Positions 13,100 through 19,700 of a stretch of DNA of 64,000 nucleotides are shown piece by piece (position 1 is the stretch's first letter; every line of letters starts with the position of its first letter). The notes beneath the pieces were generated by a model. The model was not told the origin of the DNA. It searched no databases and saw only the letters and a program-made list of their open reading frames with translations. The stretch is taken from NCBI GenBank assembly GCA_963720925.1, contig CAVRHE010000003.1:1263-65262 (forward strand). The letters run 5' to 3'. The translations under genes were made by a program, and so were the position numbers. Source of the DNA: an uncultured Acidobacteriota bacterium (GTDB lineage Bacteria > Actinomycetota > Acidimicrobiia > Spongiisociales > ZC4RG35).

Positions 13100-13954
13100 A
13101 TGACGACTAGAACAAGTTGGTGGGGCAAACGTTCACTTTGGCAGCGATTCGTTCTGCTCCTGGTGGTAGTGGGGATCGCCGCCGCAGCCTTTTACTTTCT
13201 GACCCGGGGGCCGGCGCCGCAGCCCTCGATATACCGGATCGCCTCCTCGGGCGAAGGCGAGGCCACAGTCGTGGCCGAGGGCAACGATCCGCAGTGGTCA
13301 CCTGATGGGAATTCGGTCCTTCTCACCGCAGACGACGAGGAAGGTGTCGAAGGCATCTACCTGCTGGAGCTGGGTGGAGGCGAGCCCACCTTCATCACCA
13401 CTGGAGGGAACCCGAGCTGGTCGGCGGACGGTGCCACCATTGCGTTCAGCCTCGAAGACGACCAAGGCGTGTCCGGCATCTACACCATCGACACTGCTGG
13501 TGGTGAGCCTACGTTCCTAGTCGACGGCGATGAGCCGGTCATCTCTCCCGACGGCGCCTTGATCGCCTTTAGCGGTCAGGACCAGGGCGGGAACCCGGGC
13601 GTCTACACGTACGAGGTGGGCACCGAGGCCGTCACGTTGCTCACCCCCGGAAATGAGCCTGCCTGGTCGCCGGACGGGACGACCATCGCCTTTGTCAGCG
13701 ACAACTCCGAGGGCGACGCCGAGATCCAGCTCTTCGACCTGGCCAGCTCCGAGATCACCTTCGTCACCGGCGGCGACGACCCGGTGTGGTCACCGGACGG
13801 ATCGACTCTCGCCTTCAGCGGCGAGGACAGTGCCGAGTTGCCGATCGTGGCCACGGTTGCTCCTGGCTCGACGCCGGCAGAAGTCACCAGCGGCGAGGAG
13901 CCATCGTGGTCTCCGGACGGAACCGAGCTCGTCTTTGTGAGGACACCCGAGTAG
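13100..13954 (+). CDS. Membrane-anchored TolB-like beta-propeller protein (PD40/WD40-like repeats)
   Basis: It has an N-terminal TM segment (FVLLLVVVGIAAAAFYFL). About six diverged repeats follow, of the type P(Q/S/A)WSPDG..IAF...G..(I/V)Y. Confidence 0.75.
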   Translation: MTTRTSWWGKRSLWQRFVLLLVVVGIAAAAFYFLTRGPAPQPSIYRIASSGEGEATVVAEGNDPQWSPDGNSVLLTADDEEGVEGIYLLELGGGEPTFITTGGNPSWSADGATIAFSLEDDQGVSGIYTIDTAGGEPTFLVDGDEPVISPDGALIAFSGQDQGGNPGVYTYEVGTEAVTLLTPGNEPAWSPDGTTIAFVSDNSEGDAEIQLFDLASSEITFVTGGDDPVWSPDGSTLAFSGEDSAELPIVATVAPGSTPAEVTSGEEPSWSPDGTELVFVRTPE

Positions 13955-13964
13955 CAGGTGCTCG

Positions 13965-15584
13965 TTAGGCAGAGTCTGCCTTCAATATGGCCACAGTCGG
14001 AGACTCGTAGAGCCGGTCAAAGGTCGCGGCGACGTTTCCACCGAGCCACGCCGCATCCGGGCCACGTCGATCGACGATGAGGAAGTCGATTCCGTTTTCG
14101 CTGACCAAAGCGTGAGCTTCGGCGGCACCTGTCGATGGAGCGAATATCTCGTTTGCGATCTGTGCCTGATTTCGCTCGTCGGGAAAAGAGAGTGCTCGAA
14201 CGTCGATCCCCGTATAGGTCCGTCTCTTCCCGTAACCCTGGACCCACCAGCCGAGGGGGTTCCCATTGGGGCCGGCAGATGCGGCCATCAAATCCTGTGG
14301 TGAAGAGTTCTCGCCGAGCCAATCGAGTGCTTCCAAGACTTCATCATCCGCCACTCTGTACCAGTCCGTCGCGGCCACATAGGCAACCAGTCCTCCGGCC
14401 AGGATCGCCGATGCCATGGAGATCAAGAGAGTCGCGATGACCGGGAAAGCCCAGCGATTGATCCTTTTGCCGTTTTCGGGATCCCGACGACCAACCTTCT
14501 CGACCAGCCATTGCACCGTAAGGCTGGCGAGAATGATCAGCCCGACCTGTGTCAGCAGCAGGCCGCGCGCCTCACCCGTCACGAGGAAGAACGTCAGACC
14601 GGCCACGGTCCAGGAAGATCCGACAGCTAGTGTCGCTTGTCGCCCGTCCTTCACCCCTCGTATCGCCAGAGCAGCGATTCCGAGCGCGGCCACCAACACC
14701 CAGGGGACGACGGCATCCCGGATAGCCAAGTCGATCGATTCCATGCGGGAGACGTCGTATGGGTTGAGAACTGCAGTCACACCCGCCTCCGCCCCGGCGA
14801 TTCTGGTGAGCACGACGAACAGTCCGCCGGGAATGAGAACGGCGAGTACCACCGCAAACGCCCTCAAGATCTCCCGGCGATTTCTCCTTGCGTTCAGAAC
14901 CCAATGCAGCACCGCAAGTGGCAGTGCCACCAGCAGCAAACCCCCGATCAGGGCGTGGGTGGCGAATGTCAGCGCAGCAAAGACGAGGGTGACAATCAGG
15001 ATCCAGAAGCGATCAAGGCTCAACCATCGAATAGCGAAGTACACAGTCAGCAAAGCAAATGCCGTTCCCATCAGTTGGGGATATCCACCCCAGGCGTAGG
15101 CCTCGAGCTGCGCGCCGGCCACACCGCAACACACCGCGGCCCCAGTCGCGTACCAACGACCCAGGGGTCGGCAGCAGATGTAGACCGCCACCACGAGCAG
15201 CGCCTTTGCAAGGAGCGCGATCACCACAAGAGCGGGAATGGCTCCAAGCAGCTGCACGCCGAGCGCGAGGAGCGCAGGGAATACCGGGGGATAGGCAACG
15301 TCGGAGGCCATTACATCATCGCCAGTCAGGCCACGGGCGATGGCAAGCCAATTCCCACCGTCCGCACCGCTCGGGATCATCCCTGGAATCGAGAGGTGGA
15401 TGCCGACGACGAGGACGACCAGAGCGGTGATTAGGAGGAGATCCCAGAAGTCGAAATGGCTCCCTGCAGCCGACGGCTCGAGGGTTTCGCCTTGTGCTGT
15501 ATCGAGAACGCCTGAGGACATCTGACGTGTGATTTCCTTGAAGTTTGGTCGAACGGACCCAACGGTTACGGGAGTTTCCGCCAT
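13965..15584 (-). CDS. Large polytopic membrane protein, GT-C-fold glycosyltransferase-like, with a C-terminal soluble domain
   Basis: The 539-aa ORF has more than 10 hydrophobic segments by eye. An acidic first-loop motif (SGADGGNWLAIARG) recalls PMT/ArnT-type GT-C enzymes. The roughly 150-aa C-terminal domain is hydrophilic. GC content is lower than in the neighbours. The family assignment is tentative. Confidence 0.45.
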   Translation of the reverse strand: MAETPVTVGSVRPNFKEITRQMSSGVLDTAQGETLEPSAAGSHFDFWDLLLITALVVLVVGIHLSIPGMIPSGADGGNWLAIARGLTGDDVMASDVAYPPVFPALLALGVQLLGAIPALVVIALLAKALLVVAVYICCRPLGRWYATGAAVCCGVAGAQLEAYAWGGYPQLMGTAFALLTVYFAIRWLSLDRFWILIVTLVFAALTFATHALIGGLLLVALPLAVLHWVLNARRNRREILRAFAVVLAVLIPGGLFVVLTRIAGAEAGVTAVLNPYDVSRMESIDLAIRDAVVPWVLVAALGIAALAIRGVKDGRQATLAVGSSWTVAGLTFFLVTGEARGLLLTQVGLIILASLTVQWLVEKVGRRDPENGKRINRWAFPVIATLLISMASAILAGGLVAYVAATDWYRVADDEVLEALDWLGENSSPQDLMAASAGPNGNPLGWWVQGYGKRRTYTGIDVRALSFPDERNQAQIANEIFAPSTGAAEAHALVSENGIDFLIVDRRGPDAAWLGGNVAATFDRLYESPTVAILKADSA

Positions 15585-15635
15585 TAAGGTAGGGGCCGAA
15601 CATCAGGCAAGCATCAAGTCGGGGGACGGGACGCA

Positions 15636-16574
15636 GTGACTCATTCGAGCGAGGAGAGCAGACGAGGGCCGAATTGGGGGCGCCTCGCCATAGTGGTGGT
15701 TGTCCTCGGTGCGATCCTCACCTTCTGGTTCTTGAACACCGGAGACGATGGAGAACCCGGAGCCACGACTACCACCCCTGAGGCGCAAGCCACCACAACC
15801 CCGACCAGTGTGGTGCAGACCCCGACGACGGCAGCCCCTTCGACGACAACAGCACCGACCAGTGCAACGACCACCGCGGCCGCCCCTGGAACCACAGGAA
15901 CCGCGGCCGCCGGGGGAGTTGGCGCCGTCTATGTCGTGGGTCTCGATGGCGCCAATGCCACCTGGCTCACGGATGGGTCAACCCCCACGTGGTCGCCCAA
16001 TGGGGACCAGATCGCTTTTCAAGGCACCGACGGCATCTACGTGATGGGCGCCGACGGGTCCAACGCCACCTGGCTCACCAACGGATCCACACCCGACTGG
16101 TCACCCAACGGCGACCAGATCGCCATCACCGGAACCGACGGGATCTACGTGATGGGCGCCGACGGGTCCAACGCCACCTGGCTCACCAACGGATCCACAC
16201 CCGACTGGTCACCCAACGGCGACCAGATCGTGTTCCAGGGCACCGACGGGATCTACGTGATGGGCGCCGACGGGTCCAACGCCACCTGGCTCACCAACGG
16301 ATCCACACCCGACTGGTCACCCAACGGCGACCAGATCGCCTTCACCGGAACCGACGGGATCTACGTGATGGGCGCCGACGGGTCCAACGCCACCTGGCTC
16401 ACCAACGGATCCACACCTGACTGGTCACCCAACGGCGACGAAGTCGTGTTCACCGGAACCGATGGGATCTACGTGATGGGCGCCGACGGGTCCAACGCCA
16501 CCTGGCTCACCAACGGATCCGCACCAGACTGGTCACCCAACGGCGACCAGATCGTGTTCCAGGGCACCGCCTAG
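15636..16574 (+). CDS. Membrane-anchored six-blade PD40 beta-propeller protein with near-identical blades
   Basis: The start is GTG. A TM segment (LAIVVVVLGAILTFWFL) is followed by a Thr/Ala/Pro linker. Then come six units of 36 aa, GTDGIYVMGADGSNATWLTNGSTPDWSPNGDQI(A/V)F(T/Q). The stop overlaps the stop of the convergent gene at 16571. Confidence 0.85.
   Translation: MTHSSEESRRGPNWGRLAIVVVVLGAILTFWFLNTGDDGEPGATTTTPEAQATTTPTSVVQTPTTAAPSTTTAPTSATTTAAAPGTTGTAAAGGVGAVYVVGLDGANATWLTDGSTPTWSPNGDQIAFQGTDGIYVMGADGSNATWLTNGSTPDWSPNGDQIAITGTDGIYVMGADGSNATWLTNGSTPDWSPNGDQIVFQGTDGIYVMGADGSNATWLTNGSTPDWSPNGDQIAFTGTDGIYVMGADGSNATWLTNGSTPDWSPNGDEVVFTGTDGIYVMGADGSNATWLTNGSAPDWSPNGDQIVFQGTA
15915..16562 (+). 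repeat. In-frame tandem repeat, period 108 bp, six units (the last five nearly identical)
   Basis: Unit boundaries were read directly at 16023, 16131, 16239, 16347 and 16455. Units 2-6 differ only at a handful of positions, mostly in the last four codons. Unit 1 (about 15915-16022) is more diverged. Confidence 0.9.
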
Positions 16575-18751: not shown

Positions 18752-19700
18752 TCAGACGTGGTCGACGCGGTCGGCGTTATTCGCCCCGGCGTCGGATCGG
18801 ACCGCCATGACGTCGATAGCCGGCAGGTCCGACCCATGCAGCAGGGTCAGGTCAACGATCGTGTCTGTGCCTGTAGCGAGGGCGGCATGCCACTCACGGG
18901 GCGCTGTCTGGCGGTGATGGTCGTGACCCTGACCCCTCGAGCGAACCAGCATCAGCCCCAGATGTCTGAGACCGTCACGGAAAGTGCGGAGCTTTGGTTG
19001 ACCGCCGGATCGCCGCCGGTATCGAAATCGGGACCTGCTCGATCCTCGCCCCGTGCTGCACTGCCTCGATCAGGAACTCGGAGGCGAACTCCATTCCCGG
19101 GGAAACCAGGTCCAACTGCTCCAGGTAAGGCTTCCTGATGCTGCGAAGACCGCAGTGGGCGTCACCGATGTCGCTTCTGAAGAGGACATTCATTATTCCG
19201 GTCAGAACCGGATTGCCGACGTAGCGGTGAAGCCAGGGCATCGCCCCCTTCTCCATTCCCCGATTGAGGCGGTTTCCGACGACCATGTCCGCGCCATCTT
19301 GAAGTGGCTCGACAAACGCGGGGAGGGCGCCGAAGTCGTATGTTCCGTCTGAGTCACCCATGACGAGATAGCGACCCCTCGCCTCGGAGAGCCCACGACG
19401 GCAAGCGTTCCCGTATCCGCGATCGGGCTCGTGGATCACCCGAGCGCCGGCCGCACGGGCCATGACGACCGAACGGTCAGACGAGCCATTGTCGACAACC
19501 ACGACCTCGCCAGAGATGCCCAATTCGACCAGCGCCCGGCTGGCCTCCTCGACACATCGACCGATTGCCTCCTCCTCGTTCAGACATGGCATGACGATCG
19601 ACACGTCGATGGCGCGGCCGGCGACGGGGACGCCGTTATGGGTTTGCGGAGCCTCGCGAGCTTCCATTCGATTGGACTTGCGGCTCTCGGAATATGTCAC
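18752..19700 (-). pseudogene. Glycosyltransferase family 2 (polyprenol-phosphate sugar synthase-like), frame broken near the 3' end
   Basis: It contains VSIVMPCLNEEEAI...VVVDNGSSDRS...MGDSDGTYD (a DxD-type motif). ORF 18975..19700 ends ...EQVPISIPAAIRRSTKAPHFP*. The +1 frame reads YRRRSGGQPKLRTFRDGLRHLGLML, the usual GT2 C-terminal motif, and stays open to 18752, 24 nt before the next gene start. The junction is near 19021. Confidence 0.75.

What the first reader, a model, noticed from the sequence alone, without database searches (positions are those of the whole stretch)
15915..16562. Five near-identical 108-bp tandem units encode the blades of a beta-propeller (very recent amplification or concerted evolution)
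Units starting at 16023, 16131, 16239, 16347 and 16455 are almost identical at the nucleotide level. Each encodes one 36-aa PD40 blade (GTDGIYVMGADGSNATWLTNGSTPDWSPNGDQI..). The differences cluster in the last four codons (AIT, VFQ, AFT, VVFT). A more diverged first unit completes a six-blade protein. The neighbouring paralogue (13100-13954) has ordinary, diverged blades. DNA repeats this similar are unstable, so copy number may vary between strains or be collapsed or expanded in the assembly. They are also a natural example of propeller evolution from a single blade.
Basis: seen in the sequence. Interest (0 to 1): 0.65.

Follow-up and report, generated by a model that had tools for sequence, protein, structure and literature searches.

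The report
Six-blade propeller kept uniform by recombination
A soil bacterium's membrane-anchored six-blade ring protein is encoded by six 108-bp repeats, five nearly identical, and sister species show the same six-repeat layout with their own uniform repeats, so the likeness is maintained over time, not a one-off recent duplication.

Summary
Gene 15636-16574 (+, 312 aa) encodes a transmembrane anchor, a Thr/Pro-rich linker and six 36-aa PD40 units of 108 bp each. Units 2-6 differ at 2-11 of 108 bases. Unit 1 differs from them at 33-39.

AlphaFold gives a confident ring (pLDDT 95, 24 strands). Its best structural matches are six-bladed TolB propellers.

Six loci in five species of the genus hold six units at the syntenic site, each with a diverged unit 1 and its own homogenised units 2-6.
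- In two species the five units are base-perfect, yet the two arrays differ at two synonymous sites in all five copies.
- This genome and its sister (about 81% DNA identity across the locus) share position-specific unit ends (T,Q,T,T,Q). They also differ by synonymous changes present in all or four of five units.

The array therefore predates speciation and is still being homogenised, with the count held at six.

I saw no spanning reads. K-mer depth in two related-strain metagenomes gives about five core copies. Two metagenome contigs carry 4- and 2-unit versions, probably collapsed in assembly.

Near-identical propeller blades are a documented phenomenon, so this is a new member of a known kind.

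The parts
15636..16574 (+). Gene for a 312-aa membrane-anchored PD40/TolB-like six-blade propeller ('propeller B'), GTG start, TAG stop
   Evidence: ORF listed. Pfam PD40 53.8 bits against cut-off 20.9. Intact syntenic orthologues in G012, G019, G015 and G026. Codon positions 1 and 2 are 97-99% conserved against G012, position 3 is 85% conserved in units 2-6.
15684..15734 (+). Hydrophobic segment LAIVVVVLGAILTFWFL (residues 17-33) after a basic stretch (RRGPNWGR): inferred N-in signal-anchor helix
   Evidence: Read from the translation. The same layout is seen in orthologues. Topology is inferred, not tested.
15756..15914 (+). Thr/Pro/Ala-rich low-complexity linker (about residues 41-93)
   Evidence: Translation. 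84.6% DNA identity to G012 over the N-terminus plus linker.
15915..16022 (+). Unit 1, diverged (GVGAVYVVGLDGANATWLTDGSTPTWSPNGDQIAFQ)
   Evidence: 33-39 of 108 differences from units 2-6. A diverged unit 1 is present in all five species.
16023..16130 (+). Unit 2 (ends ...QIAIT)
   Evidence: Nearest to unit 4 (2 differences).
16131..16238 (+). Unit 3 (ends ...QIVFQ)
   Evidence: Nearest to unit 6 (3 differences).
16239..16346 (+). Unit 4 (ends ...QIAFT)
16347..16454 (+). Unit 5 (ends ...EVVFT)
16455..16562 (+). Unit 6 (GSAPDW variant, ends ...QIVFQ), followed by GTA and the stop at 16563-16574
   Evidence: The T-to-A change at unit column 67 is shared with unit 6 of G012.
13100..13954 (+). Paralogue 'propeller A': same anchor-plus-linker layout, six diverged blades of about 41 aa, no DNA repeat
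   Evidence: It is the syntenic partner in relatives.
13965..15584 (-). 539-aa polytopic membrane protein between the two propeller genes, with no Pfam or NCBIfam match. It is part of the conserved triad used here as the synteny marker
   Evidence: It lies next to the propeller B homologue in G012, G026, G001, G007, G003 and G029, and within about 5 kb in G019 and G015.

Best explanation
This is a real, functional gene for an extracytoplasmic, membrane-tethered six-bladed TolB-like beta-propeller with unusually short (36-aa) blades. It sits in a cell-envelope glycan locus. The near-identity of units 2-6 is not a fresh duplication. It is a long-lived six-unit array whose interior units are repeatedly homogenised by intragenic recombination, meaning short-tract gene conversion and/or unequal exchange in register of one or two units. 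Selection for a closed six-blade ring holds the count at six. Unit 1 borders unique sequence and largely escapes homogenisation. Shown here: the array and its coding capacity; the confident six-blade model; the same six-unit layout at the syntenic locus in five species; genome-specific homogenised units; array-wide synonymous differences between sister species; position-specific marks shared between sister species. Inferred: the recombination mechanism, selection on blade number, membrane topology, and the biochemical role. The likeliest role is a binding or scaffold partner of the adjacent polytopic membrane protein in envelope-glycan assembly, held with low confidence.
For: 1. Six units in every locus examined: G000, G012:C8, G012:C7, G019, G015 and G026.
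2. In G019 and G015, units 2-6 are 100% identical in DNA within each genome. The two arrays differ at two synonymous columns (63 and 102), each fixed in all five units. Unit 1 differs at 7 of 108 bases.
3. The synonymous Gly codon at unit codon 4 is array-wide and lineage-specific: GGG in G000 (4 of 5 units), GGC in G012 (5 of 5), GGT in G019 and G015 (5 of 5), GGG in G026 (5 of 5). Protein-level constraint therefore cannot explain the identity.
4. G000 and G012 are collinear at about 81% DNA identity over 9.1 kb. They share position-specific unit ends: T,Q,T,T,Q at codon 36, A,V,A,V at codon 34 of units 2-5, and Ala only in unit 6 at column 67. Same-position pairing gives the minimal distance, tied with one other of 120 permutations. 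They also differ by synonymous changes at column 36 (5/5 against 5/5), column 12 (4/5 against 5/5) and column 96 (4/5 against 4/5). Outgroups show that the column 36 change arose in the G000 lineage and the column 96 change in the G012 lineage.
5. G026 unit 5 is a mosaic: its first third matches its array and the rest resembles unit 1 (18 differences against 26-31 for the other units). This looks like a conversion tract.
6. Two-unit periodicity at 216-219 bp occurs in G026 (90%) and G012:C7 (97%), so exchange also happens in two-unit register while the total stays at six.
7. Purifying selection: against G012, codon positions 1 and 2 are 97-99% identical and position 3 is 85% identical.
8. Structure: pLDDT 95, pTM 0.90, 24 strands. 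Best matches are six-bladed TolB propellers (2ojh TMq 0.82, 1crz 0.80).
9. Copy number: summed k-mer depth of the repeat core over the flank is 57.3/11 = 5.2 (run X25) and 44.9/9.0 = 5.0 (run X2) in a strain about 96% identical. Contigs there also join unit end to unit start ('goes back 108').
Against: The positional signal between G000 and G012 lies only in the unit-boundary codons. Columns 4-96 carry none. Those codons are mostly non-synonymous, so parallel selection for the same pattern is not excluded. The post-speciation sweeps rest on few sites: three columns in one species pair and two in the other. All the genomes are metagenome bins, probably long-read assemblies, and a systematic base-calling or polishing error in an identical context would be copied into every unit. 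Polishing with multi-mapping reads can also over-homogenise repeats. No read spanning the array was seen, and the depth ratio comes with the tool's own warning that summed contig depth is not a copy number. Gene conversion cannot be separated from contraction followed by re-expansion, especially for the base-perfect arrays of G019 and G015. The consensus of units 2-6 is 2-2.5 times less diverged between species at third codon positions than unit 1. Simple neutral concerted evolution does not predict this.
Confidence: 0.7

Rival explanations
1. Independent re-amplification from a single blade (or a two-blade piece) in each species. This is the 'continuous amplification' model of Pereira and Lupas. 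[quoted passage not shown]
For: Blades are more alike within a genome than between genomes in every species. Pereira and Lupas read exactly this pattern as recent, independent amplification (PMC9218822). The base-perfect arrays of G019 and G015 carry no positional marks. Positional homologues elsewhere in the genus have other solutions: 7 units of 40 aa at 75-78% DNA identity in G007 and G003, and 7 diverged units in G029. The locus has therefore been rebuilt more than once. Two-blade amplification is visible in G012:C7 and G026.
Against: G000 and G012 (and contig L063) share the same order of unit-end variants, which a re-amplification from one blade would have erased. The diverged unit 1 and the count of six are kept in all six loci. 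An amplification process without a counter should leave other counts in at least some genomes (PMC9218822 discussion).
Confidence: 0.2
3. Assembly artefact: the true unit count differs from six, or the repeats were homogenised by assembly or polishing.
For: Short-read contigs break at or collapse the array. Two metagenome contigs give 4 and 2 units, and an 80-contig genome gives 3. An earlier agent judged other broken frames in this genome to be assembly errors (unchecked).
Against: Six independent loci, all in assemblies of 7-40 contigs, give six units. K-mer depth in two other runs gives about five core copies. Six units give a confident closed propeller. The G000 units carry distinguishing bases, and a Logan contig from another run reproduces 16000-16088 with no differences.
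Confidence: 0.05
4. The identity reflects only strong selection on the protein sequence and codon usage, without DNA exchange between units.
For: The blades are under purifying selection. GC3 of the array is high in G000 and G012 (85-88%).
Against: Synonymous codons are uniform within a genome but differ between genomes (GGG, GGC, GGT; GGG against GGA; CAG against CAA; GCG against GCA). Unit 1 in the same gene uses other codons.
Confidence: 0.02

Closest known systems
Highly repetitive ('recently amplified') beta-propellers, for example the WRAP domain of Nostoc punctiforme (Chaudhuri et al. 2008 as cited in, and Pereira and Lupas 2022, PMC9218822)
   Same: A closed propeller whose blades are near-identical in protein and in DNA. 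Blades are more alike within a protein than to any other blade. It occurs in bacteria. A locally repetitive layout (one old blade plus amplified ones) and a two-blade amplification unit are both categories named in that paper.
   Different: Here syntenic orthologues from five species can be compared. The count is constant at six, positional marks are shared between sister species, and array-wide synonymous changes separate them. This points to maintained homogeneity rather than a young age. The paper's main text never uses the terms 'concerted evolution', 'gene conversion' or 'recombination'. The blades are PD40/TolB-like and only 36 aa long.
High-internal-conservation WD40 repeats of fungal NLRs (het-d, het-e and the HNWD family of Podospora anserina; bioRxiv 10.1101/2025.01.13.632504)
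   Same: Propeller repeats are kept 80-100% identical by concerted evolution through unequal crossing-over or other recombination. They are correctly recovered only from long-read assemblies.
   Different: The fungal repeats vary in number between alleles and carry four hypervariable codons under diversifying selection on the binding face. Here the number is constant in all long assemblies and variation is confined to two or three boundary codons. The protein here is bacterial, extracytoplasmic and not an NLR.
TolB C-terminal six-bladed propeller (PDB 1crz, 1c5k, 2hqs; putative TolB 2ojh)
   Same: The best structural matches, TMq 0.80-0.82. PD40 sequence motif. Six blades.
   Different: There is no TolB N-terminal domain. 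A transmembrane anchor and a Thr/Pro linker take its place. TIGR02800 scores 109.5 bits against a cut-off of 343. Blades are 36 aa, against about 44 aa in TolB (my recollection of TolB structures, not measured here). The gene lies in a glycan-synthesis locus, not a tol-pal operon.
Designed fully symmetric propellers such as 'Pizza' (from my own knowledge, not checked here)
   Same: A six-blade ring made from identical blades.
   Different: This one is natural, has one diverged blade, and has shorter blades.

Membership tests
PD40 / WD40-like beta-propeller repeat (Pfam PF07676) | Whole-protein score above Pfam's gathering cut-off | tested here: met
   53.8 bits against 20.9, E = 1.6e-14. No single stretch passed on its own; the score is the sum over repeats.
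PD40 / TolB-like six-bladed propeller fold | Closed ring of six four-stranded blades | tested here: met
   AlphaFold2 pLDDT 95, pTM 0.90, 24 strands. Foldseek best hits are TolB propellers, TMq 0.80-0.82. This is a prediction only. The model's coordinates could not be inspected, so the closure register was not determined.
TolB (Tol-Pal system protein) | Equivalog HMM TIGR02800 above its cut-off | tested here: not met
   109.5 bits against 343.15.
TolB (Tol-Pal system protein) | N-terminal alpha/beta domain before the propeller, and a tol-pal gene neighbourhood | tested here: not met
   The N-terminus is a transmembrane helix plus a Thr/Pro linker. The neighbours are a sulfotransferase, a polytopic membrane protein, a GFO/IDH/MocA oxidoreductase, and GT4 and GT2 glycosyltransferases.
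Highly repetitive beta-propeller (criterion of Pereira and Lupas 2022) | Median pairwise blade identity above 60% | tested here: met
   Median over all 15 blade pairs is 89%. Units 2-6 are 89-97% identical. The criterion is taken from PMC9218822.
Concerted evolution of tandem repeats | Repeats more alike within a genome than between orthologous arrays | tested here: met
   Within-genome differences among units 2-6 are 0-21 of 108. Between the G000/G012, G019/G015 and G026 lineages they are 19-31.
Concerted evolution of tandem repeats | Lineage-specific substitutions present in all or nearly all repeats | tested here: met
   Columns 63 and 102 (G019 against G015, 5/5 each). Columns 36, 12 and 96 (G000 against G012). 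The number of sites is small.
Concerted evolution of tandem repeats | The array itself is older than the species split (orthologous array, not re-made) | tested here: met
   Synteny. Same count. Shared positional marks between G000 and G012, with same-position pairing tied for the minimum with one other of 120 permutations. For the deeper splits this is inconclusive.
Fungal-type high-internal-conservation recognition repeats | Hypervariable codons within otherwise identical repeats, and repeat-number polymorphism | tested here: not met
   Variation is limited to boundary codons 34-36 plus a few singletons. The count is six in all long assemblies. The shorter versions come only from fragmentary or metagenome assemblies.

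The most novel reading that the evidence does not exclude
Near-identical blades here are not a mark of youth. A closed six-blade propeller has been carried as a homogenised array through speciation, across at least the G000/G012 split at about 19% DNA divergence and possibly across the whole clade with 36-aa units. Exchange between blades occurs in one-unit and two-unit register while the ring size stays fixed. Blade identity would then be a poor clock for propeller age. Part of what is read in the literature as 'independent recent amplification' would instead be concerted evolution. The array's synonymous divergence between species, 2-2.5 times lower than in unit 1, would point to an extra force such as exchange of the array between species or biased conversion.
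Probability: 0.5. Interest if true: 0.55.

Novelty: new member of a known kind. Interest (0 to 1): 0.42.

Why it matters
Propellers with near-identical blades are the main evidence that this fold is still being built from single blades, and blade identity is commonly read as recent origin. This genus offers a natural series at one syntenic locus:
- base-perfect arrays of five units;
- 90-98% identical arrays that keep positional marks;
- two-blade periodic arrays;
- 75-78% identical arrays of seven 40-aa units;
- fully diverged blades.

With this series, 'recent re-amplification' and 'maintained homogeneity' can be told apart using ordinary comparative data.

There is also a practical point. 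Within the genus, the full array was found only in assemblies of 7-40 contigs (5 of 11 such genomes against 0 of 20 more fragmented ones). Two metagenome contigs carry in-frame 4-unit and 2-unit versions. Short-read catalogues probably under-report or truncate such genes.

A natural 216-residue six-blade ring with five identical 36-aa blades may also interest protein designers.

Tried and rejected
1. N-glycosylation idea. Every unit of G000 carries the sequons NAT and NGS (11 in all), and glycosyltransferases are nearby. The sequons are absent from the G019 and G015 units (SNAV, EGAS) and from most G026 units, so they are not a conserved feature. Dropped.

2. GC-biased gene conversion. GC3 of the array is 85-88% against 64-67% in unit 1 in G000 and G012. 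In G019 and G015 it is 75% against 61-72%, and in G026 it is 83% against 86%. The pattern is not consistent.

3. Copy-number variants through the large protein database. The best hit was only 45% identical, so no close homologues were returned.

4. Spanning reads. All runs holding the sequence are kept as k=31 contigs, which break at the array. Only a depth ratio could be obtained.

5. Expression. Two metatranscriptome runs hold single low-depth contigs of a related strain's gene: 15656-15994 with 13 differences, and 15964-16142 with 3 differences. This is weak support, and DNA carry-over is not excluded.

6. Ring-closure ('velcro') register.

Full report
**1. The observation**

Tandem Repeats Finder finds a single array between 12 and 18 kb. 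It spans 15952-16559 with period 108, 5.6 copies, 91% matches and no indels.

Units 2-6 (16023-16562) differ from each other at 2-11 of 108 bases. Unit 1 (15915-16022) differs from them at 33-39 bases. Nine of the 14 variable columns lie in the last 15 bases of the unit, which gives the endings AIT, VFQ, AFT, VVFT and VFQ.

The units are in frame in ORF 15636-16574 (+, 312 aa). The product has these parts:
- a basic stretch followed by the hydrophobic segment LAIVVVVLGAILTFWFL;
- a Thr/Pro/Ala-rich linker;
- six 36-aa units;
- a three-residue tail (GTA).

It passes Pfam PD40 at 53.8 bits against a cut-off of 20.9. In the whole 3.0-Mb, 14-contig genome only five arrays have a period of at least 60 and at least 2.5 copies, and this one has the most copies. 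The paralogue at 13100-13954 has six motifs about 41 aa apart and no DNA repeat.

**2. Structure**

I ran AlphaFold2 on residues 89-312 with a 48-sequence alignment. The result has mean pLDDT 95, pTM 0.90 and 24 strands, four per unit.

Foldseek against the PDB puts six-bladed TolB propellers first: 2ojh at TMq 0.82, and 1crz and 1c5k at 0.80.

The protein is nevertheless not TolB:
- TIGR02800 scores 109.5 bits against a cut-off of 343.
- There is no TolB N-terminal domain.
- The neighbours are glycan-synthesis genes.

The ring of about 216 residues is compact, at 36 aa per blade. I could not inspect coordinates, so the register between DNA unit and structural blade, and the closure geometry, remain undetermined.

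**3. Relatives**

The genus holds 31 species representatives. Syntenic orthologues with 108-bp units occur in four of the other 30:

| Genome | Protein identity to G000 | Array (Tandem Repeats Finder) |
|---|---|---|
| G012 | 92% | 5.7 copies, 91% |
| G019 | 68% | 5.9 copies, 97% |
| G015 | 69% | 5.9 copies, 96% |
| G026 | 60% | 5.4 copies, 88%; also period 216, 3.0 copies, 90% |

A second cassette in G012 (contig C7) also has six units, built from a 219-bp two-unit repeat at 97%.

After cutting all genes into six units from the stop codon backwards, every one has a diverged unit 1 and homogenised units 2-6. In G019 and G015 the five units are identical to the base.

The 539-aa membrane protein lies directly beside the gene in G012, G026, G001, G007, G003 and G029. 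It lies within about 5 kb in G019 and G015. These are therefore positional homologues.

Other members of the genus have different solutions at the same site:
- G007 and G003 have seven 40-aa units at 75-78% DNA identity.
- G029 has seven diverged units.
- G001 has three 36-aa units at 91%.

**4. Recent amplification or concerted evolution**

Three lines of evidence bear on this.

(a) Synonymous codons are uniform within an array and differ between arrays.
- Gly codon 4 is GGG in G000 (4 of 5 units), GGC in G012, GGT in G019 and G015, and GGG in G026.
- Gly codon 12 is GGG in G000 and GGA elsewhere.

Protein or codon-usage constraint is therefore not the cause.

(b) G019 and G015 are different species. 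Their unit 1 differs at 7 of 108 bases, and third positions of the N-terminal part are 89% identical. Their arrays differ at exactly two synonymous columns, each in all five units. Point mutation cannot do that. Homogenisation must have acted after the split.

(c) G000 and G012 are collinear at about 81% identity over 9.1 kb. Third codon positions of the flanking genes are only 52-73% identical. Yet both arrays carry the same order of unit-end variants:
- T,Q,T,T,Q at codon 36;
- A,V,A,V at codon 34 of units 2-5;
- Ala only in unit 6 at column 67.

Same-position pairing gives the minimum total distance, tied with one other of 120 permutations. The array with its marks therefore existed in their common ancestor.

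The two arrays also differ by synonymous changes at column 36 (5/5 against 5/5), column 12 (4/5 against 5/5) and column 96 (4/5 against 4/5). Outgroups place the column 36 change in the G000 lineage and the column 96 change in the G012 lineage.

This is the signature of concerted evolution with short exchange tracts, or with selection keeping the boundary residues. A one-off recent amplification is excluded.

The model of independent re-amplification from a single blade in each species (Pereira and Lupas 2022, PMC9218822) is not excluded for the base-perfect arrays or for the deeper splits. It fits the variety of solutions seen in the genus. It does not fit the G000/G012 pair.

That paper's main text never uses the terms 'concerted evolution', 'gene conversion' or 'recombination'. 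Concerted evolution of propeller repeats is described for fungal NLR WD40 domains.

**5. Further signs of exchange**

- G026 unit 5 is a mosaic. Its first third is identical to its array and the remainder resembles unit 1 (18 differences, against 26-31 for the other units).
- G026 and G012:C7 show two-unit periodicity.
- The A/V alternation at codon 34 is shared by G012 and G026 (A,V,A,V,A) and at 4 of 5 positions by G000. This hints at an underlying three-times-two-blade symmetry, but the evidence is thin.

**6. Copy number and assembly**

Runs that hold the sequence are kept as k=31 contigs, which stop at the array.

A strain about 96% identical occurs in two soil metagenomes. There the summed k-mer depth of the repeat core relative to the flank is 57.3/11 = 5.2 and 44.9/9.0 = 5.0. 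Contigs also join unit end to unit start. The tool warns that summed depth is not a copy number, so this is rough support for five core copies.

Two JGI metagenome contigs carry syntenic orthologues with in-frame 4-unit and 2-unit versions. The junctions run through the identical core, as expected for the shortest path in a short-read assembly graph. I read these as collapse, although real deletion alleles cannot be excluded.

Within the genus, the full array is found in 5 of 11 assemblies with at most 40 contigs and in none of 20 more fragmented ones. Several of those show matches cut at contig ends.

**7. Function**

The gene is intact in all five species and under purifying selection. Against G012, codon positions 1 and 2 are 97-99% identical and position 3 is 85% identical.

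Fragments of a related strain's gene occur in two metatranscriptome runs at low depth.

The conserved triad of propeller A, polytopic membrane protein and propeller B sits among a sulfotransferase, an oxidoreductase, a GT4 glycosyltransferase and a polyprenyl-phosphate-sugar-synthase-like GT2. This suggests an extracytoplasmic role in envelope-glycan assembly, but nothing here tests it.

**8. Unexplained**

In every species contrast, the consensus of units 2-6 is 2-2.5 times less diverged at third codon positions than unit 1. For example, G000 against G019 gives 9 of 36 against 23 of 36 (Fisher p = 0.002). Against G012, the array's third positions are 85% identical, compared with 72% for unit 1 and the linker.

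Neutral concerted evolution does not predict a lower rate. Exchange of the array between species, biased conversion, or selection at the DNA level are possibilities I could not separate.

**9. Verdict**

Near-identical propeller blades are well documented in the literature and appear in many earlier notes of this scan. I therefore class this as a new member of a known kind. Its added value is an unusually clean comparative series bearing on how such arrays persist.

Noticed in passing
window 13100-16574; G012, G026, G001, G007, G003, G029, G019, G015: The triad of propeller A, a 539-aa polytopic membrane protein (no Pfam or NCBIfam match) and propeller B is conserved across the genus. The membrane protein evolves fast: 76% aa identity to G012, with third codon positions only 52% identical. 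Its GC content is lower (60.7% against 64.2% for the window).
   Followed up: partly
window 18975-19700 (-): A GT2 glycosyltransferase resembles polyprenyl-phosphate sugar synthases (AglJ, dolichyl-phosphate hexose transferase, PpgS; E = 1e-35 to 4e-24, all below cut-off). Together with the polytopic membrane protein, this hints at glycosylation on the outer face using a lipid-linked sugar.
   Followed up: no
G029:C18:67916-68845 against G029:C18:70295-71731: The G029 oxidoreductase next to the propeller gene is 85% identical to the window's, closer than G012's 80%. Its membrane protein is only 38% identical and its propeller has seven diverged blades. The locus looks mosaic, as if the triad is exchanged as a cassette.
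   Followed up: no
G012:C7:6140-8731 and G012:C37:8894-13033: G012 (8% contamination) holds two further triad-like cassettes. The C7 propeller has a 219-bp two-blade repeat at 97%, and its N-terminal part is in another frame. The C37 membrane-protein gene is broken by several stops. These are either decaying copies, sequence errors or contigs from another organism.
   Followed up: partly
L010 1495-2238 (-) = G001:C27: The positional homologue in G001 has only three 36-aa units (91% DNA identity) in a 247-aa protein. This is either a real half-propeller that would need to dimerise, or a collapsed assembly (80 contigs).
   Followed up: no
L063 3001-3720 and L064 1960-2460: JGI metagenome contigs carry syntenic orthologues with 4 and 2 units, in frame. 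They are probably collapsed repeats, and as such would be annotated as truncated but intact proteins.
   Followed up: partly
window 15915-16562; units of G012, G019, G015, G026: Third-codon-position divergence between species is 2-2.5 times lower in the consensus of units 2-6 than in unit 1 of the same gene. This is unexplained.
   Followed up: partly
window 16023-16562: The array has GC3 of 88% against 67% in unit 1 and 68-78% in neighbouring genes. Each unit carries two N-x-S/T sequons (NAT, NGS). Both features are shared with G012 but not with G019, G015 or G026.
   Followed up: yes
genome contigs C7:928302-929089, C9:189258-189718, C7:1103430-1103939, C7:295752-296079: These are the other long-period tandem arrays in the same genome: 300 bp x 2.6 at 88%, 186 bp x 2.5 at 97%, 186 bp x 2.7 at 87%, and 103 bp x 3.2 at 89%. 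They were not examined.
   Followed up: no
An earlier agent called this genome Acidimicrobiia, and the only named hits among the 120 best protein matches listed include Acidimicrobiia and Actinomycetota. The taxonomic label was not resolved here.
   Followed up: no
G012:C8:69296-70453: The G012 orthologue of the oxidoreductase next to the propeller gene contains one in-frame TGA. This is either a sequencing error or a pseudogene.
   Followed up: no
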